The notes beneath the pieces were generated by a model, which saw only the letters and a list, made by a program, of their open reading frames with translations, was not told the origin of the DNA and searched no databases. A stretch of DNA of 37,432 nucleotides from a virus (taxonomy: Duplodnaviria > Heunggongvirae > Uroviricota > Caudoviricetes). Positions 9,831-34,474 of the stretch are shown one piece after another; positions within the stretch are counted from its first letter, which is position 1; each line of letters opens with the position of its first letter. Where the stretch lies: the IMG/VR virus record IMGVR_UViG_2724679140_000013. One strand, 5' to 3'. Position numbers and translations under genes: made by a program.

Positions 9831-10790
9831 ATGAAAATTTGTATCGATGACGGCTCCACCAACATCAAGCTGGCATGGACTGAGAACGGCGAACGCCGCA
9901 ACGCCATCAGCCCGAACAGCTTCAAGTCGGAATGGTCTGCGCCGTTCGGTGGAACGCAGCCCGCAAACTACATGCTTGATGGCGTGCGCTATGGTTTTGA
10001 TCCGGTCAGCGATCGCTTTGTCCAGACGACCGACACGCAATACCAGTACAGCGATGTGAATGTCATTGCCATTCATCACGCGCTGGTCAAATCAGGCATC
10101 ACACCACAGGAAGTGGATGTGGTTGTCACCCTGCCACTGAGCGAATATTTCGACACCAACGCACAGCCGGACATGGCCAACATCAACCGCAAAAAAGCAA
10201 ACGTCATGCGCCCGGTGGCGTACCAGAACGGAAAAGCATTCACTATCCGTAACGTACGGGTTATGCCTGAATCCATTCCGGCTGGTTTTAAAGCACTGGC
10301 TGACATGAGTCCGTTTGAATCCCTGCTGATTGTGGATTTAGGCGGAACCACGCTGGATGTGGCAAAGGTTCAGGGACAACTGGCAGGTATCAGCCAGGTG
10401 TTTTGCGATCCACACGTAGGCGTTTCCCTGATGGCCGATGCCGTACTGTCGGTGATGGCCACTAACGGTATGCGTACCAGTCACCACATCGCCAATACCA
10501 TTATCGAACATCGCCATGATGAAGCCTGGCTGCGCCAGCACATCCACAATGACGCGCATTACGCCAGCCTGATGGCGGTTATTCGTGAAAAGGAAGAAAC
10601 ACTGAAACAACGCGTGATCCGCGCGCTGGCGGGTTTTTCGGGTTACGGGCGGGTGATGGTTGTCGGTGGAGGGGCGGAGATTGTGGCACCCGCTATCCGC
10701 GAAGCCTGCGGAGTTAATGCGACTTTCATCGCGGACGGGGTGCCACAGTTTGCTCTGGTTAACGGGCTGTACGCAATGGACAAGGAGTAA
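9831..10790 (+). CDS. parM: ParM/StbA-type actin-like partition ATPase
   Basis: 319 aa; N-terminus MKICIDDGSTNIKLAW and motifs YSDVNVIAIHHAL, IVDLGGTTLD, VMVVGGGAEI closely resemble plasmid R1 ParM as I recall it. Confidence 0.85.
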   Translation: MKICIDDGSTNIKLAWTENGERRNAISPNSFKSEWSAPFGGTQPANYMLDGVRYGFDPVSDRFVQTTDTQYQYSDVNVIAIHHALVKSGITPQEVDVVVTLPLSEYFDTNAQPDMANINRKKANVMRPVAYQNGKAFTIRNVRVMPESIPAGFKALADMSPFESLLIVDLGGTTLDVAKVQGQLAGISQVFCDPHVGVSLMADAVLSVMATNGMRTSHHIANTIIEHRHDEAWLRQHIHNDAHYASLMAVIREKEETLKQRVIRALAGFSGYGRVMVVGGGAEIVAPAIREACGVNATFIADGVPQFALVNGLYAMDKE

Positions 10791-19218: not shown

Positions 19219-19713
19219 ATGAGTATGGTTGCCAGAACCAACCCCGGCCCCGCAGAGGACGACATCACCGATACCGATGATGGTGATACCCGTATTTCAG
19301 CGGGCGCATTCTGGCCGGATATTGTGCTGCGTGAGCTGCGTCTGGCGATACGACTGCCGGGCCGTGTGACCACCTCCCGCCTGCTGCATACCGCCACCGG
19401 GGCCGTGGCACACGTTACCCGCGAGCTGGAAGCGTGGCAGCAGGAACAACAGGCGGCTGGCCATCAGACGCTGGCCGATGTTCCGGCACCCGTAATTAAC
19501 GGAGAAAGCGTCAATCTCTGGCACTGGCGCAATGCCGTTTATACCGCCACACGCGCCCTGATTCTGGAGCGTTACCGCGATGCGGACACAACGGATAAGG
19601 GCGACCGCCGCGCGGACGCACTGGATATACAGACATCGGATTTGTGGCGCGATGTGAGCTGGGCCATCTCTGACATTCTGCGCCGCCCGCGAATCTTTGC
19701 GGAGTTGTGCTGA
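19219..19713 (+). CDS. L: head completion/stabilisation protein (P2 gpL family)
   Basis: about 164 aa from ATG at 19219 (CAGGAG SD); follows M as in P2. Confidence 0.85.
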   Translation: MSMVARTNPGPAEDDITDTDDGDTRISAGAFWPDIVLRELRLAIRLPGRVTTSRLLHTATGAVAHVTRELEAWQQEQQAAGHQTLADVPAPVINGESVNLWHWRNAVYTATRALILERYRDADTTDKGDRRADALDIQTSDLWRDVSWAISDILRRPRIFAELC

Positions 19714-24691: not shown

Positions 24692-26013
24692 CATCAAAAT
24701 ACTATGCCATACTGACCAGCCAGGGCGCAGCAAGGCTGGCAAACGCGACCATGCTCGGCAGCAAGCTGAATCTGACGCAAATGGCCGTGGGTGATGCAAA
24801 CGGCATATTACCAACGCCAGATCCGACACAAACCAGACTGATTAACCAGAAACGCATTGCTCCGCTGAATATGCTGGATATCGACCCCTCTAATCCGGGC
24901 CAGATTATTGCGGAACAAATCATTCCTGAAAATGAAGGAGGTTTCTGGATCCGTGAGATTGGTCTTTACGATGATGAAGGGATCCTTATTGCAGTGGCGA
25001 ACTGCCCGGAAACCTACAAACCACGATTGCAGGAAGGGAGTGGTCGTACACAGACCATCCGAATGCTCCTTATTGTCAGCAATACAGAGTCTGTCACACT
25101 GAAAATTGACCCGTCAGTAGTCCTGGCAACCCGCAAATATGTGGACGACAGGATGTCTGGTGCATCCTTGCAACTGGACAAATTAATAGAGAAACACATC
25201 AATGCAGAGGATCCGCATACCCAATATGCCCACAAAGAATCCCCGGCGTTTAGCGGCACCCCGACTGCACCAACTGCGGATAAAGCGGATAACAGCAATA
25301 AGCTGGCCACGACAAAATTTGTAAAAGGGGCAATCGCTGATCTGCAGTCAAAATTAGATAATAACCAGCCCGTTGACTGCTATACAAAAGCCGAATCAGA
25401 TACCAGGTATCCGGATTCAGGAAGTGTTGCATACCTGACGAAAAGTACAATTCAGCGTTTTCAGGGAAGTATTGAAGTCAGGGATATTTTCAGTATCTAC
25501 ACATTAAATGATGTAAACGGTCTCAGGCTCGAACCGGGACTAAAAAATAACATTGGACTGAAACGCAGAGGAAAATGGACTTATTACAGCTTCCCGGATA
25601 AGGATGGGGAGCTGGCATTAAAATCTGATTTAACTTCGCTTCTGGACGGTCTGGACATATATCCTGTGGGAGCACCACTTCCCTGGCCATTAGCCACACC
25701 GCCATCGGGTTACTTAATCTGTAACGGACAGCGATTTAACCCGTCCACCTACCCCGGGCTGGCTTCTGCCTATCCAGGTGGTGTCCTGCCGGATTTGCGC
25801 GGTGAATTTATTCGTGGCTGGGATAATGGTCGTGGTGTGGATACAGGAAGACGCATCCTCAGTCAGCAATTCGGCAATACCCCAGTTATGGATTATGAAT
25901 ATCCGGTAGGCAGTGGTTTTTCGGTAACGATTCGCACTGTAGGAAATGATGAAGGTGCAAATGAAACGCGTCCGCGAAATATCGCTTTTTTATATATCGT
26001 GAGGGCTAAATAA
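24688..26013 (+). CDS. H: tail fibre protein (P2 gpH family)
   Basis: 441 aa; conserved P2 H N-terminus (MTSKYYAILTSQGAARLANA...); divergent C-terminal receptor-binding region. Confidence 0.85.
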   Translation: MTSKYYAILTSQGAARLANATMLGSKLNLTQMAVGDANGILPTPDPTQTRLINQKRIAPLNMLDIDPSNPGQIIAEQIIPENEGGFWIREIGLYDDEGILIAVANCPETYKPRLQEGSGRTQTIRMLLIVSNTESVTLKIDPSVVLATRKYVDDRMSGASLQLDKLIEKHINAEDPHTQYAHKESPAFSGTPTAPTADKADNSNKLATTKFVKGAIADLQSKLDNNQPVDCYTKAESDTRYPDSGSVAYLTKSTIQRFQGSIEVRDIFSIYTLNDVNGLRLEPGLKNNIGLKRRGKWTYYSFPDKDGELALKSDLTSLLDGLDIYPVGAPLPWPLATPPSGYLICNGQRFNPSTYPGLASAYPGGVLPDLRGEFIRGWDNGRGVDTGRRILSQQFGNTPVMDYEYPVGSGFSVTIRTVGNDEGANETRPRNIAFLYIVRAK

Positions 26014-26633
26014 TGCAAAAATATAACGTCAATATTCAGGAAGGAAAAATTGGTGAGAACGGTCTGGCCAGCGTGGCCGGATGGGTTAAGTGCTACCTTG
26101 CTAATCCTGTAACACGCGAATACATGGGGTCCACCATGGAATATGTCATGTTCGATGTGTCCCTGTCAGAAGGTGCATATCTGGATGAACCTCAGTTACC
26201 AGTAAAAGCCAGTCAGGCGGTTCGACGCACGGAAGATGGAACAGCCTGGGAAATTGTCGACGATTATCGTGGGATGGAAGCCTTTAATACACAAACCAGA
26301 GAGTCCGTAACCATTAATTTTATTGGTCCATTGCCCGAAATATTAACAATGCACAAACCCACAAGCGAATTTGACAGATGGGATGGCCATCGCTGGGTGG
26401 AGGACAAAGAAGCAGCCAGAAAAGCCAGGATTGATGCTGTCAGAAAACACAAAGCAGCGTTATCAGAAGAAGCGGAAACACGCATCGCTCAGCTTGAGCG
26501 AAAAGTTCGTCTGGAACTTGCATCAGATGAAGAAAAAGAACTGCTGAAAGCATGGGAAATCTACACAATAAAACTCGATGATATCAATCCTGAAATAACA
26601 ACGGATATTAAACTGCCGGAGAAGCCAGAATAA
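26013..26633 (+). CDS. G: tail fibre assembly chaperone (P2 gpG / Tfa family)
   Basis: 206 aa; immediately downstream of H with overlapping stop/start. Confidence 0.8.
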   Translation: MQKYNVNIQEGKIGENGLASVAGWVKCYLANPVTREYMGSTMEYVMFDVSLSEGAYLDEPQLPVKASQAVRRTEDGTAWEIVDDYRGMEAFNTQTRESVTINFIGPLPEILTMHKPTSEFDRWDGHRWVEDKEAARKARIDAVRKHKAALSEEAETRIAQLERKVRLELASDEEKELLKAWEIYTIKLDDINPEITTDIKLPEKPE

Positions 26634-26752
26634 TTAATGTTTCCGGCAATCTATCGGATAACCGGATAAAACCAGCCCCGGCAATTCCGACAGTTTCTTT
26701 TTATAAAAACTTACCGCTGTGACCAGACTGGTTATCAGCGGTTCACTTCATA

Positions 26753-27247
26753 TCAGAACAGTGCTTTAACTGAACTTGTCGTATTATTCAGGGATGCGGT
26801 CACTTTTCCCTTTAGCTCTGACACCATATCGCTGAATGAGGAGGACTGAAGGCGTTCCCGCAGATCTTCGTCGCATCGCTCCAGCGTCAGGGAAAATTCT
26901 ATTTTCTTCGCTTTCCCGTAGCGATCTAACTCAGAACGGGTCGTATTCGTTTCGGTCAGAACATACATGCCATAAATATGTCCGACACCATCAATCAGAG
27001 GCCAGGGTCGCCCTGTATACGCCTGTGTGGTCAGCAGCGACAGTGACACTTCGCCACCTGTAATTTCAGGATAAAGCACGCCGGAAAGAACGATGCGATC
27101 ATCACCTGCACCGATATACTGCCAGCTTGCAGAACGGTTAACGCGTTCATTTTTCACATGCCGCCAGCTTTTGTTTTGCTGCAACTGCTGATGCGGCAAT
27201 GTGCGCAACTCAAAAACAAACATACCGTAAATCATCATCATGACCAT
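26753..27247 (-). CDS. U: tail protein U (P2 gpU family)
   Basis: 164 aa; motifs WQYIGAGDDRIVLSGVLYPEITGG and KIEFSLTL match gpU. Confidence 0.85.
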   Translation of the reverse strand: MVMMMIYGMFVFELRTLPHQQLQQNKSWRHVKNERVNRSASWQYIGAGDDRIVLSGVLYPEITGGEVSLSLLTTQAYTGRPWPLIDGVGHIYGMYVLTETNTTRSELDRYGKAKKIEFSLTLERCDEDLRERLQSSSFSDMVSELKGKVTASLNNTTSSVKALF

Positions 27248-27253
27248 GAATCC

Positions 27254-30064
27254 TTAATCTTTATCGTAAAAACGGCCACGTCCGGCACGGTCACGTCGTT
27301 CCATTTCTGTCCTGACCATTTCACCGACCAGTTTCGCCAGTTCGCGGGGATTCTGCGTAACAACGTTATGCAGATGAACATGAATTTCACCACCAAATCC
27401 GGAGGCAACAGGCTCCCGGTTACGGGGAGGAGCAGGAACAGATGCCACTGGCGATCGTATGGCCTCCGCCACCGGGCGGGAGCTGGCAGCAACAACAGGG
27501 ACCAGCGCCGGAGGCAGCGGAGCCGGGACCACGGGTGTGATATTGATTGCGGGGGCAGGCTTACTGACCTGCGCAATCTTCCGCTCCTGCCACTCCCCAC
27601 GAACGGCAAGTGCGCGTGGCAGGTTCTTAAAGACAATATCGCCGGGGCCAATGCGTTTTTTCGTCTCATCAACCAGCTTACCTGTGTTATCAGCAATTTT
27701 GCTGAGTCTGCGTTGCGTACCGGTATTGCTGTCTGTGAGCGGTTTGTTGTCTTTGGGTTTATCGCCTCCGGTGCCATTTTCCGCTGGCTTCGGCGGATTG
27801 ATTTTCGCCAGATCCCCCTGAAGCAAGGCAACCTTATCCTGAAGAATGGCCGCACGCTGTGCGTCTTCGATTTTCTTTCTCGCCCTTTCCGCTTCATCCG
27901 GAAGCACACCGAGCTTTTCAAGTATCCACGCCAGCGTATCCAGCAGCATTTTTGCAGGCGTCAGAACAAGCTGTAGCGCACCACCAAGAACGTTACCAAA
28001 TACCTCGCCAGCACTGGTGCACTTATCCAGTGTTTCCTTGCTGGACTCCATCGGTGACAGCAGCGATTTAAACCAGTTAAACACCTGGCTGATCCCGCTT
28101 CCGATTATGTCAAAAACAGGGCCAAACCGTTCAAAGGTTTCACGCAGCGGAGCCAGCTTTTCCATAATTCCGCTGAACACCCCGGCAAAAAATGCCTTAA
28201 TCGGGTCCCAGTATTTCCAGATGAGAACCGCCGCAGCCACAAGTGCAGCAGCAACCAGACCAACCGGACTGAACAGCGTCCCGAGAGCACCGCCCAGCAA
28301 AGAGACGGAACCCGTCACCATTCCCCATAGTGCAGGCAACACCCTGACAACATTCATGGAACTGGTCAGAAGAGAAAAACCAAGACGCAACGTGGCCAGC
28401 TTCCCGTAAAGCACCCCAACAACCAGCGATAACGAGCCTACGGTTGCTGTCAATGCCAGCAGCGCACCGCCTGCAATCAGCAACTGGCGCGTCAGTACCG
28501 GATGGGCCTGTGCCAGCGCCGTCACCTTTGTGACCACACGCGTGAGCCACTGTGTGACAGAACGCAGCGGCCCATCAATCAGATCACTGATGCGAATACG
28601 CAGCCCTTCCCATGCGCTGCCGAGTGATTTCAGGTCGCCGTCAAGGTTGTCGGCCATAACCTTTGCTGTACGCTCTGCCTCACCGCGCGCAGCTTCAAGC
28701 TCTTTTCTCAGTTTGGGTAAGGAACCGTTACCCGCCGCATCAACGAGCGCCATAAACGATGTGAAAGCCTCTTCTCCGGCAATGTCCTTAAAGAACGATA
28801 CCCGGTCAACTTCCCCGTATTTGCGGGTGGCTTTATAAAGGTCGGCCAGCACATTCTCCATCGGGCGCATTTTGCCGTTCGCGTCAGAGACGGCCACACC
28901 CAGTTCTTTCAAAGCATCAGCGGTTGCCTTTGGCTGTGTTACCAGACGAGCCAGGCTGGCACGCATTGCCGTCCCGGCATCACTCCCCCTGATCCCCATA
29001 TTCGCCAGCACACCCGCCATTGCTGCGGCCTGCTCCAGCGATATTCCCAGCTTGCCCGCCACCGGACCTGCATATTTCATGGTTTCACCCAGTGCGCGAA
29101 GGTCAGTGTTGGTTCGGGTAAACGCTGCGGTGAGTGTGTCACCGACCCGGTCCATCTGGTCAGCAGAAAGGCCGAACTGCGTCAGGATATTTGAGCCAAT
29201 ATCCGCCGTCTCGCCGAGGTCCATACCGCCAGCCGTTGCCATGTTCAGCACGCCGGGAAGCGCAGCCTGAATGGCTTCTGGTGTGAAGCCAGCCATTGCC
29301 AGAAAGCTCTGTCCACTGGCGGCATCGCCTGCGGTGAACTGTGTTTCAGAGCCAAGTTTTAACGCCTGCTCACGCAGCGCCTTAAACTGCGGGCTGTTTT
29401 TGTCGATTCGCGTCAGTGCCTGAACGCGGGACATCTCTTTCCCGAACCCGATGGCAGGCTGTAAAAAACGCCCGGCAGCATAGCCGCCAGCCGCTGCCGC
29501 GCCAATTGCCAGCGCACCACCCGTTTTCAGTTTTCCCGCTGTTTCCTGCGCGCGCGAATACCGCTCACGCGCCCGTGTTACACGCGCAAGCGCCTGCCGT
29601 TCGCGTTCAAGCTGGTTGTTGTATTGTTCGGTGCGTCTGATGGCCTGCTGGATGGTGTTATCGCTACCTGTCAGGGAAATGCCGTGGCGTTTCAGCTCTC
29701 CGCCAAGTTCCCGCATTTTCTGAATTTCCCGTGTGCGCGATTCGTTCAGGCGTTCAAGCCGGGTGCTTAACTGCTGCATCAGCTTTTGTTGTTTTTCGCT
29801 GAGCACTGTCCCCGAGCGTTGTAACTGTTGAAGGGCGTTAAGCTGGCGTCGTGCTTTCACGATGCCCGCATCCGCTTTACTGACAGCGTCACGGGCGCGC
29901 TCAAATGAACGCGCCTGACGCTCAAGATTTTTGATCGCCCCCTGCGTTCGCTGGATGGAGTCACCAAACTGTCCCATCAGACGGCGGGCGCTTTCGACAG
30001 GCCGGGTCAGCCTGTCAACGGCGCTGAAAGCGACCCGGATATCAAGAGTCTTCATTGTCTGCAT
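27254..30064 (-). CDS. T: tail tape measure protein (P2 gpT family)
   Basis: about 936 aa; coiled-coil N-terminus, Gly/Ala-rich TM-like middle, typical tape-measure composition; start uncertain (candidates ATG 30064, ATG 30055, GTG 30091). Confidence 0.85.
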   Translation of the reverse strand: MQTMKTLDIRVAFSAVDRLTRPVESARRLMGQFGDSIQRTQGAIKNLERQARSFERARDAVSKADAGIVKARRQLNALQQLQRSGTVLSEKQQKLMQQLSTRLERLNESRTREIQKMRELGGELKRHGISLTGSDNTIQQAIRRTEQYNNQLERERQALARVTRARERYSRAQETAGKLKTGGALAIGAAAAGGYAAGRFLQPAIGFGKEMSRVQALTRIDKNSPQFKALREQALKLGSETQFTAGDAASGQSFLAMAGFTPEAIQAALPGVLNMATAGGMDLGETADIGSNILTQFGLSADQMDRVGDTLTAAFTRTNTDLRALGETMKYAGPVAGKLGISLEQAAAMAGVLANMGIRGSDAGTAMRASLARLVTQPKATADALKELGVAVSDANGKMRPMENVLADLYKATRKYGEVDRVSFFKDIAGEEAFTSFMALVDAAGNGSLPKLRKELEAARGEAERTAKVMADNLDGDLKSLGSAWEGLRIRISDLIDGPLRSVTQWLTRVVTKVTALAQAHPVLTRQLLIAGGALLALTATVGSLSLVVGVLYGKLATLRLGFSLLTSSMNVVRVLPALWGMVTGSVSLLGGALGTLFSPVGLVAAALVAAAVLIWKYWDPIKAFFAGVFSGIMEKLAPLRETFERFGPVFDIIGSGISQVFNWFKSLLSPMESSKETLDKCTSAGEVFGNVLGGALQLVLTPAKMLLDTLAWILEKLGVLPDEAERARKKIEDAQRAAILQDKVALLQGDLAKINPPKPAENGTGGDKPKDNKPLTDSNTGTQRRLSKIADNTGKLVDETKKRIGPGDIVFKNLPRALAVRGEWQERKIAQVSKPAPAINITPVVPAPLPPALVPVVAASSRPVAEAIRSPVASVPAPPRNREPVASGFGGEIHVHLHNVVTQNPRELAKLVGEMVRTEMERRDRAGRGRFYDKD

Positions 30065-30571
30065 TCCCGCTGCGAAGTGCCGCCCGCTCACGCCAGCTAA
30101 CCACTTCGCCGGGCGTCATCATGAAGATTTCGGCGGGCGACCAGTTAAAAATAACGGCAATATCTGCCACAAAGTCTTCTATGTGCTCAAAGCACAAAAC
30201 TGTGATCAGGCTTCCGTCGCCTGTTCGTTCTTCCCGCCAGAGTCCGCACCGCTCAAAAAATTTACGGCAACCACGCATAACTGAATAAAGTCACGGGATG
30301 CCATTTTTTTGATCGTCACTTCATCCAGTCGCGGTGATGTCACGCGTGACAGCAGCGTAAACATGGATTCCGCTTTCAGATTCAGCACATCAGACAGCGA
30401 CAAATCTCGCAGAGATCCAGCCTGCTCAATAGCCCCGGTGATCTCCACAAACGTGATTTTTTCGCCGCCACGCTCAATGGGTTGGGTAAGTTTTACGCCA
30501 CGCTCACTGGTTTCTTTCACAGTATCAGCAACTACCGTGTTTTCGGTATCGATGTTTTTCGTCTCTTTCAT
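30042..30571 (-). CDS. E+E' fusion product by programmed -1 frameshift
   Basis: second ORF in -1 frame (open from 30290 to stop at 30042) overlaps E; slippery heptamer T_TTT_TTG in E frame at 30260-30254; E' C-terminus overlaps T start as in P2. Confidence 0.6.
30206..30571 (-). CDS. E: tail assembly chaperone E (P2 gpE family)
   Basis: 121 aa; AAGGAG SD; contains slippery site near 3' end. Confidence 0.75.
   Translation of the reverse strand: MKETKNIDTENTVVADTVKETSERGVKLTQPIERGGEKITFVEITGAIEQAGSLRDLSLSDVLNLKAESMFTLLSRVTSPRLDEVTIKKMASRDFIQLCVVAVNFLSGADSGGKNEQATEA
30254..30260 (-). other. -1 ribosomal frameshift slippery heptamer TTTTTTG
   Basis: minus-strand T_TTT_TTG in E reading frame; shifted frame continues KFFERCGLW... 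to 30042. Confidence 0.6.
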
Positions 30572-30625
30572 CAGGAAACTCCTTTCAGTCAGAGGCGACG
30601 CACTGCGCCGCCTGCATATTACTTA

Positions 30626-31138
30626 TCAGCCAAGCCCAAGTGCGGAACGGATGCGATCGGGCACAATGTCCTTACCGTCCTTCCGGTAAATGAAGTTCAG
30701 CAGGTCAATCTCCCACAACGGACGATCGTTAACGCTCAGCTTGTAGTAGGTGTTTTTAATGGCGTAAGTGTGCGACGTGGCTTCGCCCTGCTTGGCTTCC
30801 CCCATATCAATTTCCGTCACACGTCCGCGCATTTCGACTTCATACAGGTCGCTTTCTGCATCGGTGTAGTATTCGCCCGCAAAACGCAGCAGCGTGCCGT
30901 CAATCGTGCCGCCATACTTAAGGAACAGCTCACGAACTGCGCCCCCCATGACAAAGCTCGCATCAAGCGCGGAGTCGTCCAGACCGAGATCAATACTTAC
31001 CGCGCCCATCATGCCACCACCCCGGTAGCTGTCGGTTTTGCGCGTCAGTTTAGGCAGGGTGACAGACGTCACCTTACCCACTTCGTTTTCACCATCCACA
31101 AACAGCGTAAAAAAGCGAAGATGTTTTGGTACAGCCAT
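30626..31138 (-). CDS. FII: tail tube protein (P2 gpFII family)
   Basis: 170 aa; ATG overlaps FI stop (ATGA). Confidence 0.9.
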   Translation of the reverse strand: MAVPKHLRFFTLFVDGENEVGKVTSVTLPKLTRKTDSYRGGGMMGAVSIDLGLDDSALDASFVMGGAVRELFLKYGGTIDGTLLRFAGEYYTDAESDLYEVEMRGRVTEIDMGEAKQGEATSHTYAIKNTYYKLSVNDRPLWEIDLLNFIYRKDGKDIVPDRIRSALGLG

Positions 31139-32322
31139 CAGGCACCTCCCAGAACCGCAAATGCGGGTCCAAAGAATTCATCAGTAAACGACTGGTAAAG
31201 TTCCATGTCTTCCAGTGGAGGAGCTGGCGTATATTTGTAGCGAATACGCACCCGCCCCTGACGTAAATCCGTGGTGCCGTTATCCACCACGTCATACCAG
31301 CACGACGCCCCAATCAGTTTCCCGGCAGTAACCAGTGAATCCAGTTTTGCCCTGACGGCACTGATAACATCCTTCACATTCACGGGTGTTAATGGGCTGT
31401 CAATGGTTTCAAACTGCGCTTCCGCAATCGTGTCAGCCAGGACCTGTGCGGTACGGGTATACACCTCAAAGATGTAGGCTTTTGTTTCCGGTGTGCGGTT
31501 GCCCCAGAAGCGGAACCCGTTGCGACGAATAATGGTCGTGATTTCCTGGTTGTTGAGGCTGTTGGCATCACTGCCTTCGGCCTGCAACGACCAGAACACA
31601 TGTCTGGACATTCCCAGCACATTTTTAACCGGAACGTTGGACAGCGATTTGTGCCAGCCCTGCTCATGGTCAATGTACGCACGAAGGCCGCACGCATAGG
31701 CAGGCGCGGGGAACACTTCGTTTTTGCCACTTTTCGGGTTCCAGGCGATGAAGTCCGGCCATAAGAGCATCACCTCACGTTCGTTGAATTTCTGGCGGTA
31801 GGTAATTGCCTCAGCCATCGTGTTACAGCCGTGACATGAGGCATACACAAACGCGCGCAGTTTACCCGCAATCACGCACAGGGATTTTGTTACCGCCTCC
31901 GTGTCCAGCTCCGGCGCGGCCAGAATACGCGGACGGTATCCGATGCTTTCCTCCTGCTCTGCAACAAGCAGCGCATACATCCCCGTATAGCTGCCGTCAG
32001 ATTCAGAACCACCGATAACCAGTTGATCCTGCGTCTTACCGCCCTCTTCTTTGTGTTCAGCCACGCGAACGACGATCACCTTTGTGCTCACCTGGTCTGC
32101 GATAGCCTTAAGCGCACGATAAAGCGTCCCCGTTGTTCCGCATTTTCCCAGCACGTCATTGACGCGGGTCAGCAGTGTGGGCTTGTTCAGCGGGAACAGC
32201 TTCGCGTCCGCATCATCCGCCGTTGCCACGATACCGATAACACTGGAATCAACATCGTTAATCGCTGTTACCAGGTCGGTATTTTCCGTAACACGGGCAC
32301 CATGAAAACGAGTTTCACTCAT
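31138..32322 (-). CDS. FI: contractile tail sheath protein (P2 gpFI family)
   Basis: 394 aa; multiple conserved blocks (FPLNKP, RILAAPELDT, LRAF.Y, WPDF.AW, QGWHK.LSNV, FRFWGNRT, YTPAPPLE) match P2 FI; AAGGGG SD. Confidence 0.9.
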   Translation of the reverse strand: MSETRFHGARVTENTDLVTAINDVDSSVIGIVATADDADAKLFPLNKPTLLTRVNDVLGKCGTTGTLYRALKAIADQVSTKVIVVRVAEHKEEGGKTQDQLVIGGSESDGSYTGMYALLVAEQEESIGYRPRILAAPELDTEAVTKSLCVIAGKLRAFVYASCHGCNTMAEAITYRQKFNEREVMLLWPDFIAWNPKSGKNEVFPAPAYACGLRAYIDHEQGWHKSLSNVPVKNVLGMSRHVFWSLQAEGSDANSLNNQEITTIIRRNGFRFWGNRTPETKAYIFEVYTRTAQVLADTIAEAQFETIDSPLTPVNVKDVISAVRAKLDSLVTAGKLIGASCWYDVVDNGTTDLRQGRVRIRYKYTPAPPLEDMELYQSFTDEFFGPAFAVLGGA

Positions 32323-33715: not shown

Positions 33716-34474
33716 ATGTTCAGTTTATTTTCGTTAACTGCCGGAGCAAATGTGCGCTGGCATGATTTACCTGGTAAAGGTATTCCTGTTGTTTTTATTC
33801 ATGGGCTTGGCTGTTCCTCTTCTTATGAATATCCACGGGTTGTTGCAGATCCTGCATTTGGTGGACAACGAGCGATATTGATAGATCTCCCTGGATATGG
33901 ATTCAGTGATAAGCCTAAAGGATTCGATTACAGCATATCCCATCAAGCTAAAGTTGTTATTGAAGTAGTAGAAACCTTAAATCTCTCACAGTTCCATATT
34001 TATGGTCACAGTATGGGGGGAAGTATTGCGATTGAAGTGGCCAGACAACTACATGAGAGAACAAGAAAGCTTGTGGTTTCTGAGCCTAATTTTCACTCTG
34101 GTGGAGGTACCTATAGCCGTAAGATAATAGAGAAACCAGAAGCAGAGTTTATTTCGCATATATATAATGAATTACTGGAGTGTGAAACATCCCCATGGAA
34201 AGGTGAACTCCAGAATGCAGCCCCATGGGCAATATGGCGAGGAGCCAAAAGTCTGGTTGATGGAACCACTCCATCATGGAGAGATATATTCCTTAATCTG
34301 CCCTGTTCACGTACACTAATTTTTGGCGAACAATCATTGCCAGACAATGATTTCCAGCAAATAAAAGAATCTGGAATATCTGTTGCAATAGTGCCAAACG
34401 CTGGACACTCCATGTCATGGGAAAATCCATCAGCACTGGCCTCAATTTTACATACAGAATTTTATAGAAAGTAA
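33716..34474 (+). CDS. alpha/beta-fold hydrolase (esterase/lipase-like), AT-rich cargo gene
   Basis: 252 aa; nucleophile elbow GHSMGG, N-terminal HGLG oxyanion-region motif; markedly lower GC than flanking phage genes. Confidence 0.8.
   Translation: MFSLFSLTAGANVRWHDLPGKGIPVVFIHGLGCSSSYEYPRVVADPAFGGQRAILIDLPGYGFSDKPKGFDYSISHQAKVVIEVVETLNLSQFHIYGHSMGGSIAIEVARQLHERTRKLVVSEPNFHSGGGTYSRKIIEKPEAEFISHIYNELLECETSPWKGELQNAAPWAIWRGAKSLVDGTTPSWRDIFLNLPCSRTLIFGEQSLPDNDFQQIKESGISVAIVPNAGHSMSWENPSALASILHTEFYRK

What the first reader, a model, noticed from the sequence alone, without database searches (positions are those of the whole stretch)
30042..30571. Conserved E/E' programmed -1 frameshift with TTTTTTG slippery site
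The E' frame is closed upstream at a TGA (30293-30291), so the shift must occur at T_TTT_TTG (30260-30254), not at the upstream A7 run. This matches the tail-chaperone frameshift strategy known for P2 and lambda G/GT and supports that the inverted tail block is functional.
Basis: partly seen in the sequence, partly recalled or inferred. Interest (0 to 1): 0.35.

Follow-up and report, generated by a model that had tools for sequence, protein, structure and literature searches.

The report
P2-type tail-chaperone frameshift site, confirmed
This is the ordinary, well-known trick by which P2-family phages make two tail-assembly proteins (E and a longer E+E') from one gene by letting some ribosomes slip back one base on a run of T's; here it sits intact in a P88-like prophage of E. 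coli.

Summary
On the minus strand, gene E runs 30571-30206. The -1 frame is closed by TGA 30293-30291 and then stays open to TGA 30044-30042. TTTTTTG (30260-30254) lies in phase as aaT_TTT_TTG.

The window is a complete P88-like (Xuanwuvirus, Peduoviridae) prophage, 100% identical to the E. coli M8 chromosome over the 801 bases compared.

- The heptamer matches phage P2's annotated E/E+E' frameshift site in sequence and phase, and falls in the same alignment column.
- The -1 frame encodes the Pfam Phage_P2_GpE domain.
- The predicted 176-aa fusion aligns end to end with P2 E+E' (1e-25).
- Among 43 loci from other species, 42 keep the -1 ORF. Forty of those have T_TTT_TTG or T_TTT_TTA at that column.
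- No conserved downstream RNA structure or upstream Shine-Dalgarno (SD) stimulator was found, as reported for P2.

One correction: the shift need not occur at TTTTTTG. An overlapping in-phase heptamer, A_AAT_TTT (30263-30257), also lies in the permitted interval. It is the only heptamer left in the abundant sister lineage (phiSM and 112 IMG/VR contigs, AAATTTTATG).

Verdict: real, functional-looking, already known, low interest. RefSeq mis-annotates E' as a separate small gene.

The parts
30206..30571 (-). Gene E (0 frame), 121 aa, tail assembly chaperone homologous to P2 gpE
   Evidence: ORF and translation. PHROG 103 'tail protein' 2e-34. Pfam PF10109 Phage_TAC_7 is weak: 16.4 bits, below the cutoff of 25, covering residues 26-106. 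tblastn to P2 E gives 31.8% identity over residues 23-107.
30579..30583 (-). Shine-Dalgarno AGGAG, 7 nt upstream of the E start codon
   Evidence: Read directly from the sequence.
30291..30293 (-). TGA closing the -1 (E') frame upstream; sets the 5' limit of where a productive shift can occur
30257..30263 (-). In-phase heptamer A_AAT_TTT, an overlapping alternative slip site; a shift here gives ...VNF-F-ERCG...
   Evidence: It is the only in-phase heptamer in phiSM, 520873 and 112 IMG/VR contigs.
30254..30260 (-). In-phase heptamer T_TTT_TTG, identical to the P2 E/E+E' slip site; a shift here gives ...VNF-L-ERCG...
   Evidence: Invariant in 79 of 79 close relatives. T_TTT_TTG or T_TTT_TTA is present in 40 of 43 species-level loci.
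30042..30253 (-). E' coding region in the -1 frame (70 aa plus stop), reached only by the frameshift; the predicted fusion E+E' is 176 aa
   Evidence: Pfam PF06528 Phage_P2_GpE 5.9e-12. PHROG 1756 1.9e-38. The -1 frame becomes the better conserved frame immediately after the heptamer.
27254..30055 (-). Tape measure gene T; its ATG (30055) lies 14 nt inside the end of E'
   Evidence: Pfam PF10145 7e-57. The start is taken from the P88 annotation mapped onto the window.
30626..31138 (-). Tail tube gene FII, immediately upstream of E
   Evidence: Pfam PF04985 7.5e-47.
31138..32322 (-). Tail sheath gene FI
   Evidence: Pfam PF04984, PF22671 and PF17482.
26753..27247 (-). Tail gene U, downstream of T
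   Evidence: Pfam PF06995 2.5e-38.

Best explanation
Gene E and the overlapping -1 ORF E' are the tail assembly chaperone pair of a P2-family (P88-like) myovirus.

Most ribosomes translate E to its stop and make the 121-aa gpE. A minority slip back one base within the decamer A_AAT_TTT_TTG (30263-30254). They continue in the -1 frame and make a 176-aa E+E' fusion that carries the conserved GpE domain. Its coding region ends 14 nt inside the tape-measure gene T.

By analogy with lambda G/GT and P2 E/E+E' (an inference from those families, not shown here), the shared E part binds the tape measure. The E' part recruits tube subunits. The fixed low ratio is set by the slip efficiency.

Shown here: the frames, the in-phase heptamers, homology of both parts to P2, synteny, conservation, and the lack of a conserved RNA stimulator. 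Inferred: that the shift happens, its efficiency, and which of the two overlapping heptamers is used. T_TTT_TTG is favoured by the P2 precedent. A_AAT_TTT probably contributes too.
For: - Frames and heptamers are exact.
- P2's annotated site is the same heptamer in the same phase. PMC3091744 states that P2 shifts at TTTTTTG to give the 91-aa E and the 142-aa E+E'. My reconstruction of the P2 fusion is 142 aa.
- The window fusion aligns with P2 E+E' at 1e-25 across the junction.
- E' hits PF06528 above the gathering score.
- The gene order FI-FII-E/E'-T-U matches P2.
- Conservation: 14 of 17 diverse phage loci (P88 and P2 among them) have T_TTT_TTN at the aligned FL/FF column. Among 43 loci from different species, 42 keep the -1 ORF with the E' motif: 36 have T_TTT_TTG, 4 have T_TTT_TTA and 2 have C_CCT_TTC.
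- The decamer is invariant in 79 close relatives comprising 47 distinct sequences.
- Selective constraint switches frames at the site. In the 15 codons upstream, mean identity is 0.50 in the 0 frame and 0.22 in the -1 frame, with stops in the latter. In the 15 codons downstream it is 0.40 and 0.59.
- In several relatives a -1-frame stop lies only 4-5 codons before the heptamer, which pins the shift site.
- No start codon is conserved in the -1 frame of the relatives, and the window's own candidate starts have no SD.
Against: - No protein data exist for this phage group. RefSeq and GenBank annotate E' as a separate 51-aa gene starting at TTG 30197.
- UUUUUUG alone is a weak shifter in E. coli reporters: 0.118% without a stimulator against 0.055% background.
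- I found no conserved stimulator. The alifold consensus is -0.17 kcal/mol, the window fold has z -1.85, and there is no SD-like motif 6-17 nt upstream. The efficiency is therefore unexplained.
- The sister lineage lacks TTTTTTG altogether. That heptamer is therefore not indispensable in this genus.
Confidence: 0.9

Rival explanations
1. The frameshift is real, but the working slip site in this phage group is mainly A_AAU_UUU (30263-30257) rather than U_UUU_UUG. Residue 106 of the fusion would then be Phe (…NFFER…), not Leu.
For: - The heptamer is in phase and inside the open -1 interval.
- It is the only in-phase heptamer in the closest diverged relatives. These include phiSM, called an active, fully functional phage in PMC6456863, plus 520873 and 112 IMG/VR contigs with intact E'.
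- Klebsiella Reipivirus-type loci likewise keep only the upstream heptamer, C_CCT_TTC.
- In E. coli reporters AAAUUUU gives 0.355% with the IS911 stimulators and 11.4% with the IS3 pseudoknot. UUUUUUG gives 0.247% and 0.765%.
Against: - Without a stimulator AAAUUUU is at background (0.070% against 0.055%), while UUUUUUG gives 0.118%. No stimulator was found here.
- P2, the one experimentally studied case, has only T_TTT_TTG.
- T_TTT_TTG is invariant in the P88 subgroup.
Confidence: 0.3
2. E' is a separate small gene translated from its own start (TTG 30197 as in RefSeq, or ATG 30278), with no frameshift.
For: RefSeq, GenBank and PGAP annotate a 156-nt 'GpE family phage tail protein' CDS from the TTG. 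An ATG exists at 30278 in the -1 frame.
Against: - There is no Shine-Dalgarno motif at a usable distance before either start.
- Neither start is conserved in relatives, whose -1 frames often have no ATG, GTG or TTG there.
- Conservation of the -1 frame begins at the heptamer, 57 nt upstream of the TTG.
- An in-phase slippery heptamer is kept in 42 of 43 species-level loci, which independent initiation would not require.
- P2 E+E' is recorded as a frameshift fusion.
Confidence: 0.04
3. The longer product arises from RNA polymerase slippage (insertion of one U) on the T6 run rather than from ribosomal slippage.
For: The site is a homopolymer run, and some distant relatives have T7 or longer runs (Vibrio and Zymomonas loci).
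Against: - From general knowledge, a run of six is short for efficient transcriptional slippage.
- The sister lineage has only T4 (AAATTTTATG) yet keeps E'.
- The run is always in the X_XXY_YYZ phase. That matters for tRNA re-pairing but not for polymerase slippage.
- Mannheimia phage PHL101 uses G_GGA_AAG instead.
Confidence: 0.03

Closest known systems
Bacteriophage P2 E / E+E' programmed -1 frameshift (Christie et al. 2002, J Bacteriol 184:6522; cited from PMC3091744 and the P2 GenBank record)
   Same: - Identical heptamer T_TTT_TTG in the same phase and at the homologous alignment column (FL).
- Homologous E and E' parts.
- Same position between FII and T.
- E' overlaps the start of T.
- No recognisable RNA stimulator.
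   Different: - E is longer: 121 aa against 91 aa, with an N-terminal extension and a 15-codon 0-frame tail after the site instead of 6.
- There are 10 extra residues between the site and the GpE domain.
- A second, overlapping in-phase heptamer (A_AAT_TTT) is present that P2 lacks.
- The FI-FII-E-T-U block is inverted relative to gene D, as in all P88-like phages.
- Overall identity is only about 31%.
Phage lambda G / GT tail assembly chaperone frameshift (Levin, Hendrix and Casjens 1993; Xu, Hendrix and Duda 2004, 2013, 2014; summarised in PMC5009743)
   Same: - Two proteins share an N-terminus and are made by a low-level -1 shift near the end of the upstream ORF.
- The genes lie immediately before the tape measure gene.
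- The presumed role is as non-virion chaperones whose ratio matters.
   Different: - No sequence similarity to lambda G/GT was seen or tested here.
- Lambda uses G_GGA_AAG (from general knowledge).
- Lambda is a siphovirus and this is a contractile-tail phage.
- The functional roles here are inferred, not tested.
Sister Xuanwuvirus lineage (Citrobacter phage phiSM, Escherichia phage 520873)
   Same: About 86% nucleotide identity over this region, with the same genes and the same E' (63 of 70 residues identical by eye).
   Different: The site reads AAATTTTATG. T_TTT_TTG is lost and only A_AAT_TTT remains in phase.

Membership tests
P2-type gpE / gpE+E' tail assembly chaperone pair | The C-terminal extension carries the GpE domain (Pfam PF06528) | tested here: met
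   45.3 bits against a gathering score of 23, E 5.9e-12, residues 135-170 of the fusion. PHROG 1756 1.9e-38.
P2-type gpE / gpE+E' tail assembly chaperone pair | The N-terminal part is homologous to gpE (Pfam PF10109 Phage_TAC_7) | tested here: inconclusive
   PF10109 scores only 16.4 bits, below the gathering score of 25. However, PHROG 103 gives 2e-34, tblastn to P2 E gives 5e-4, and the whole fusion against P2 E+E' gives 1e-25. Homology is supported, but the Pfam threshold is not reached.
P2-type gpE / gpE+E' tail assembly chaperone pair | Located between the tail tube gene (FII) and the tape measure gene (T) | tested here: met
   FII 31138-30626, E 30571-30206, T 30055-27254, all on the minus strand.
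P2-type gpE / gpE+E' tail assembly chaperone pair | A -1 ORF overlaps the 3' end of E, lacks its own ribosome binding site, and runs into T | tested here: met
   The -1 frame is open 30290-30042, there is no SD before ATG 30278 or TTG 30197, and the stop lies 14 nt inside T.
P2-type gpE / gpE+E' tail assembly chaperone pair | An in-phase slippery heptamer (T_TTT_TTG in P2) at the homologous position | tested here: met
   aaT_TTT_TTG at 30260-30254 against ggT_TTT_TTG in P2, in the same alignment column.
P2-type gpE / gpE+E' tail assembly chaperone pair | Both E and E+E' are actually produced and both are needed for tail assembly | not testable with these tools
   This needs protein detection and genetics. 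It is known only for P2 (literature cited).
Conserved tail-chaperone frameshift of dsDNA tailed phages (lambda G/GT type) | Two overlapping ORFs just upstream of the tape measure gene, joined by a conserved -1 (rarely +1) slip site | tested here: met
   the arrangement and an in-phase heptamer are kept in 42 of 43 species-level loci and in all 17 phage loci examined.
Conserved tail-chaperone frameshift of dsDNA tailed phages (lambda G/GT type) | A low, fixed frameshift ratio (about 1:30 in lambda) | not testable with these tools
   Reporter values for the bare heptamers are 0.07-0.12% without a stimulator. The efficiency in the native context is unknown.

The most novel reading that the evidence does not exclude
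In P88-like phages the slip site is a tandem decamer, A_AAU_UUU_UUG, whose two overlapping heptamers are both used. This would give two E+E' isoforms (Phe or Leu at residue 106).

Such tandem sites (also C_CCU_UUU_UUG in Enterobacter, Pantoea and Erwinia prophages) may be the evolutionary intermediates through which the slip site has moved 3 nt upstream. The end states would be lineages that have lost T6G, such as phiSM-like AAATTTTATG and Klebsiella CCCTTTCTTG.
Probability: 0.4. Interest if true: 0.2.

Novelty: already known. Interest (0 to 1): 0.08.

Why it matters
Scientifically it matters little. It is a textbook recoding signal in a very common E. coli prophage; the region is present in 1373 of 5426 complete genomes.

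Its practical value is for annotation. RefSeq and GenBank records of this phage group call E a 'hypothetical protein' or 'tail protein'. They list E' as an independent 51-aa gene rather than as a ribosomal-slippage fusion.

The intact signal, together with intact FI, FII, T, U and D, is consistent with a tail module that still works.

The side observation is a small but testable point about how recoding sites drift. Sister lineages have swapped T_TTT_TTG for the adjacent A_AAT_TTT or C_CCT_TTC.

Tried and rejected
- **Downstream stimulatory RNA.** The 104 nt after the site fold with z = -1.85, and 11 of 200 shuffles fold as well. The stem starts at +1 with no spacer. RNAalifold on 20 diverse relatives gives 2 pairs, -0.17 kcal/mol and no covariation. 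Rejected.
- **Upstream SD-like stimulator.** None was found by eye in the 20 nt before the site.
- **The A7 run as slip site.** It is out of phase and upstream of the -1-frame TGA.
- **A 16-sequence E alignment as query for the genome scan.** A 7-sequence alignment worked, but its single pattern ([IL][KES]QAGSLR[GD]L) samples only the enterobacterial clade.
- **A degenerate DNA pattern to count site variants in IMG/VR.** It returned mostly unrelated chance hits and excluded the P88 type. Not used.
- **Christie et al. 2002.** The paper is not held, so P2 details come from the GenBank record and from PMC3091744.
- **NCBIfam.** No hit for E or the fusion.
- **PDB sequence search.** No relative found.
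- **Promoter and terminator scan of 29800-30800.** Nothing above the shuffle expectation.
Full report
**1. What is in the sequence**

Reading the minus strand, gene E starts at ATG 30571, seven bases after an AGGAG motif. It ends at TGA 30208-30206 and encodes 121 aa.

The -1 frame carries a TGA at 30293-30291. It then stays open for 82 codons to TGA 30044-30042, which is 54 codons past the end of E.

The 0-frame codons around the site are GTA AAT TTT TTG AGC.

The A7 run at 30310-30304 is out of phase (ATC AAA AAA ATG) and lies upstream of the -1-frame stop, so it cannot give a long product.

A script that lists every in-phase heptamer between the -1-frame stop and the E stop finds exactly these two.

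**2. Is it more than chance?**

The bare heptamer is common. There are 21 copies in the window against 11.7 expected from shuffles. The evidence has to come from context, and it does.

- The predicted fusion is E residues 1-106 plus 70 residues of the -1 frame, 176 aa in all. It hits Pfam PF06528 (Phage_P2_GpE) at 45.3 bits, against a gathering score of 23, within the -1-frame part.
- That part alone hits PHROG 1756 at 1.9e-38, and E hits PHROG 103 at 2e-34.
- The neighbours on the same strand are sheath FI, tube FII, tape measure T and U. D lies on the other strand.

**3. Where the window comes from**

The region is 97.6-97.9% identical to Escherichia phages P88 and 500465-2 (genus Xuanwuvirus, Peduoviridae). 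It is 100% identical to the chromosome of E. coli M8.

The window holds an integrase at its left end, replication gene A, portal, terminase and tail fibres. It is therefore a whole P88-like prophage.

In phage P88 the FI-FII-E-T-U block has the same orientation relative to D. P88 was obtained by induction (PMC6456863). The 'inverted tail block' is thus the normal layout of this genus and not a rearrangement.

The region is present in 1373 of 5426 complete E. coli genomes.

**4. Comparison with P2**

The P2 record annotates E (91 aa), E+E' as a two-piece CDS, and a 'site of -1 translational frameshift' at 19685.

The P2 sequence there reads GGT TTT TTG TCG. This is ggT_TTT_TTG, the same heptamer in the same phase.

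PMC3091744 states that P2 shifts at TTTTTTG to give the 91-aa E and the 142-aa E+E'. It also states that P2 has no downstream RNA structure. My reconstruction of the P2 fusion is 142 aa.

The window fusion aligns with the P2 fusion over 150 residues (31% identity, E 1e-25). NFL aligns with GFL, and the conserved DxxADIAVIFxWxPxE…WRExA…RSGN motif aligns as well.

**5. Conservation in relatives**

Three samples were examined.

- **Seventeen phage loci from many genera, P88 and P2 among them.**
  - Ten have T_TTT_TTG: P88, phiT5282H, SEN4, KSP20, 3LV2017, RSA1, Alfacinha3, ST147-VIM1phi7.1, YenM_31.17 and P2.
  - One Yersinia phage has T_TTT_TTC.
  - A Vibrio phage and a Zymomonas element have T_TTT_TTT.
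  - Mannheimia PHL101 has G_GGA_AAG further downstream.
  - All have a -1 ORF with the E' motif.
  - In the protein alignment the site falls on a nearly invariant Phe.
- **Forty-three loci from different bacterial species.**
  - Forty-two keep the -1 ORF with the E' motif.
  - Thirty-six have T_TTT_TTG, four have T_TTT_TTA and two have only C_CCT_TTC.
  - One MAG locus has E and E' fused by an indel.
- **Seventy-nine near-identical IMG/VR loci (47 distinct sequences).**
  - All have AAATTTTTTG unchanged, while nearby positions vary.

Selective constraint also switches frame exactly at the site. In 16 ungapped relatives, mean pairwise amino-acid identity over the 15 codons upstream is 0.50 in the 0 frame and 0.22 in the -1 frame, with stops in the latter. 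Over the 15 codons downstream it is 0.40 in the 0 frame and 0.59 in the -1 frame.

In several relatives a -1-frame stop lies only 4-5 codons before the heptamer, which pins the shift to the T run.

**6. The caveat: which heptamer is used**

The closest diverged relatives are phiSM, 520873 and P884B11, at about 86% nucleotide identity. PhiSM and 520873, the two examined base by base, read AAATTTTATG. TTTTTTG is gone and the only in-phase heptamer left is A_AAT_TTT.

This is not a defect. The exact variant occurs in 112 IMG/VR contigs, all with that single heptamer and nearly all with an intact E'. PhiSM is described as an active phage.

Klebsiella Reipivirus-type loci likewise keep only the upstream heptamer, C_CCT_TTC. 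Many Enterobacter, Pantoea and Erwinia loci have the tandem C_CCT_TTT_TTG.

E. coli reporter data (Sharma et al. 2014, PMC4066793 supplement) give these frameshift percentages:

| Heptamer | No stimulator | IS911 stimulators | IS3 pseudoknot |
|---|---|---|---|
| UUUUUUG | 0.118 | 0.247 | 0.765 |
| AAAUUUU | 0.070 | 0.355 | 11.4 |
| CCCUUUC | 0.193 | 1.39 | 23.2 |

Background without a motif or stimulator is about 0.055%.

The statement that the shift 'must' occur at T_TTT_TTG therefore does not follow. The frames allow either heptamer, and the products differ by one residue (…NFLER… against …NFFER…). I favour T_TTT_TTG as the main site because of the P2 precedent and its invariance in the P88 subgroup. 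I give about 0.3 to A_AAT_TTT being the main site.

**7. Stimulators**

The 104 nt downstream fold only marginally better than shuffles (z -1.85). Twenty diverse relatives share no structure (-0.17 kcal/mol, no covariation). No SD-like motif lies 6-17 nt upstream. This agrees with what is reported for P2. It leaves the in-context efficiency unexplained.

**8. Rivals**

- **Independent initiation of E'.** RefSeq annotates a 156-nt CDS from TTG 30197. This is unlikely. Neither candidate start has an SD, no start codon is conserved in the -1 frame of relatives, and -1-frame conservation begins 57 nt upstream at the heptamer.
- **Transcriptional slippage.** This is unlikely because the run is short, the sister lineage has only T4, and the phase is always kept.

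**9. Verdict**

This is an already known recoding device in a very common prophage, and its interest is low. The useful outputs are an annotation correction (E+E' should be a ribosomal-slippage CDS) and the minor note that the slip site has moved by one codon in sister lineages.

Noticed in passing
window 30042-30197 (minus strand); L253 804-959; L001 4504-4659: RefSeq (PGAP) and the P88 GenBank record annotate E' as a free-standing 51-aa 'GpE family phage tail protein' starting at TTG 30197. They call E a 'hypothetical protein' or 'tail protein'. No ribosomal slippage is annotated in any record of this phage group that I looked at.
   Followed up: yes
L002 1947-1956, L084 1524-1533, and 112 IMG/VR contigs (L141 onward): The sister Xuanwuvirus lineage reads AAATTTTATG. 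T_TTT_TTG is lost and A_AAT_TTT is the only in-phase heptamer, with E' intact. Klebsiella loci (L086, L117, L119) have only C_CCT_TTC. This suggests the slip site has shifted by one codon through tandem-decamer intermediates.
   Followed up: partly
L115 1240-1470 (Symbiopectobacterium MAG): E and E' are in one continuous frame (155 aa from the match start) because of an indel shortly after the TTTTTTG. This is either a degraded prophage in a symbiont or an assembly error.
   Followed up: partly
one of L004-L083 (IMG/VR), about nt 425 of the E/E' segment: One near-identical contig shows an indel inside E', with 89 mismatches from position 425 onward in an ungapped comparison. I did not check whether it keeps the frame.
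   Followed up: no
window 26634-26752, compared with L001 7990-8577: Phage P88 has a DNA invertase gene between the tail-fibre genes and U. In this window the tail-fibre assembly gene (26013-26633, +) is followed directly by U (27247-26753, -), with no invertase. The tail-fibre region also differs from P88, which covers only 76% of window 13000-37432.
   Followed up: partly
window 33716-34474 (+): An alpha/beta-hydrolase ORF (Pfam PF00561 7.5e-21) lies just after gene D. It is still inside the stretch that matches phage PhiR44_2 (match to about window 35490). It may be prophage cargo rather than a host gene.
   Followed up: no
window 9831-10790 (+): A ParM/StbA-type actin-like segregation protein (PF06406 6.9e-82) is encoded in the early region of the prophage. 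This hints that P88-like phages may also be able to persist as plasmids.
   Followed up: no
window 30593-30613 (minus strand): A 9-bp GC-rich hairpin (GGCGGCGCA…UGCGUCGCC) lies in the FII-E spacer and has no T tail. The 59-nt spacer folds at z -1.62, which is not remarkable. It may be an mRNA-processing or stability element.
   Followed up: partly
L096 1506-1515 (Mannheimia phage PHL101): This P2-family phage has no T-run at the homologous column. It carries G_GGA_AAG/A_AAG_GGC near the end of E, which is the lambda-type heptamer in a P2-type gene pair.
   Followed up: no
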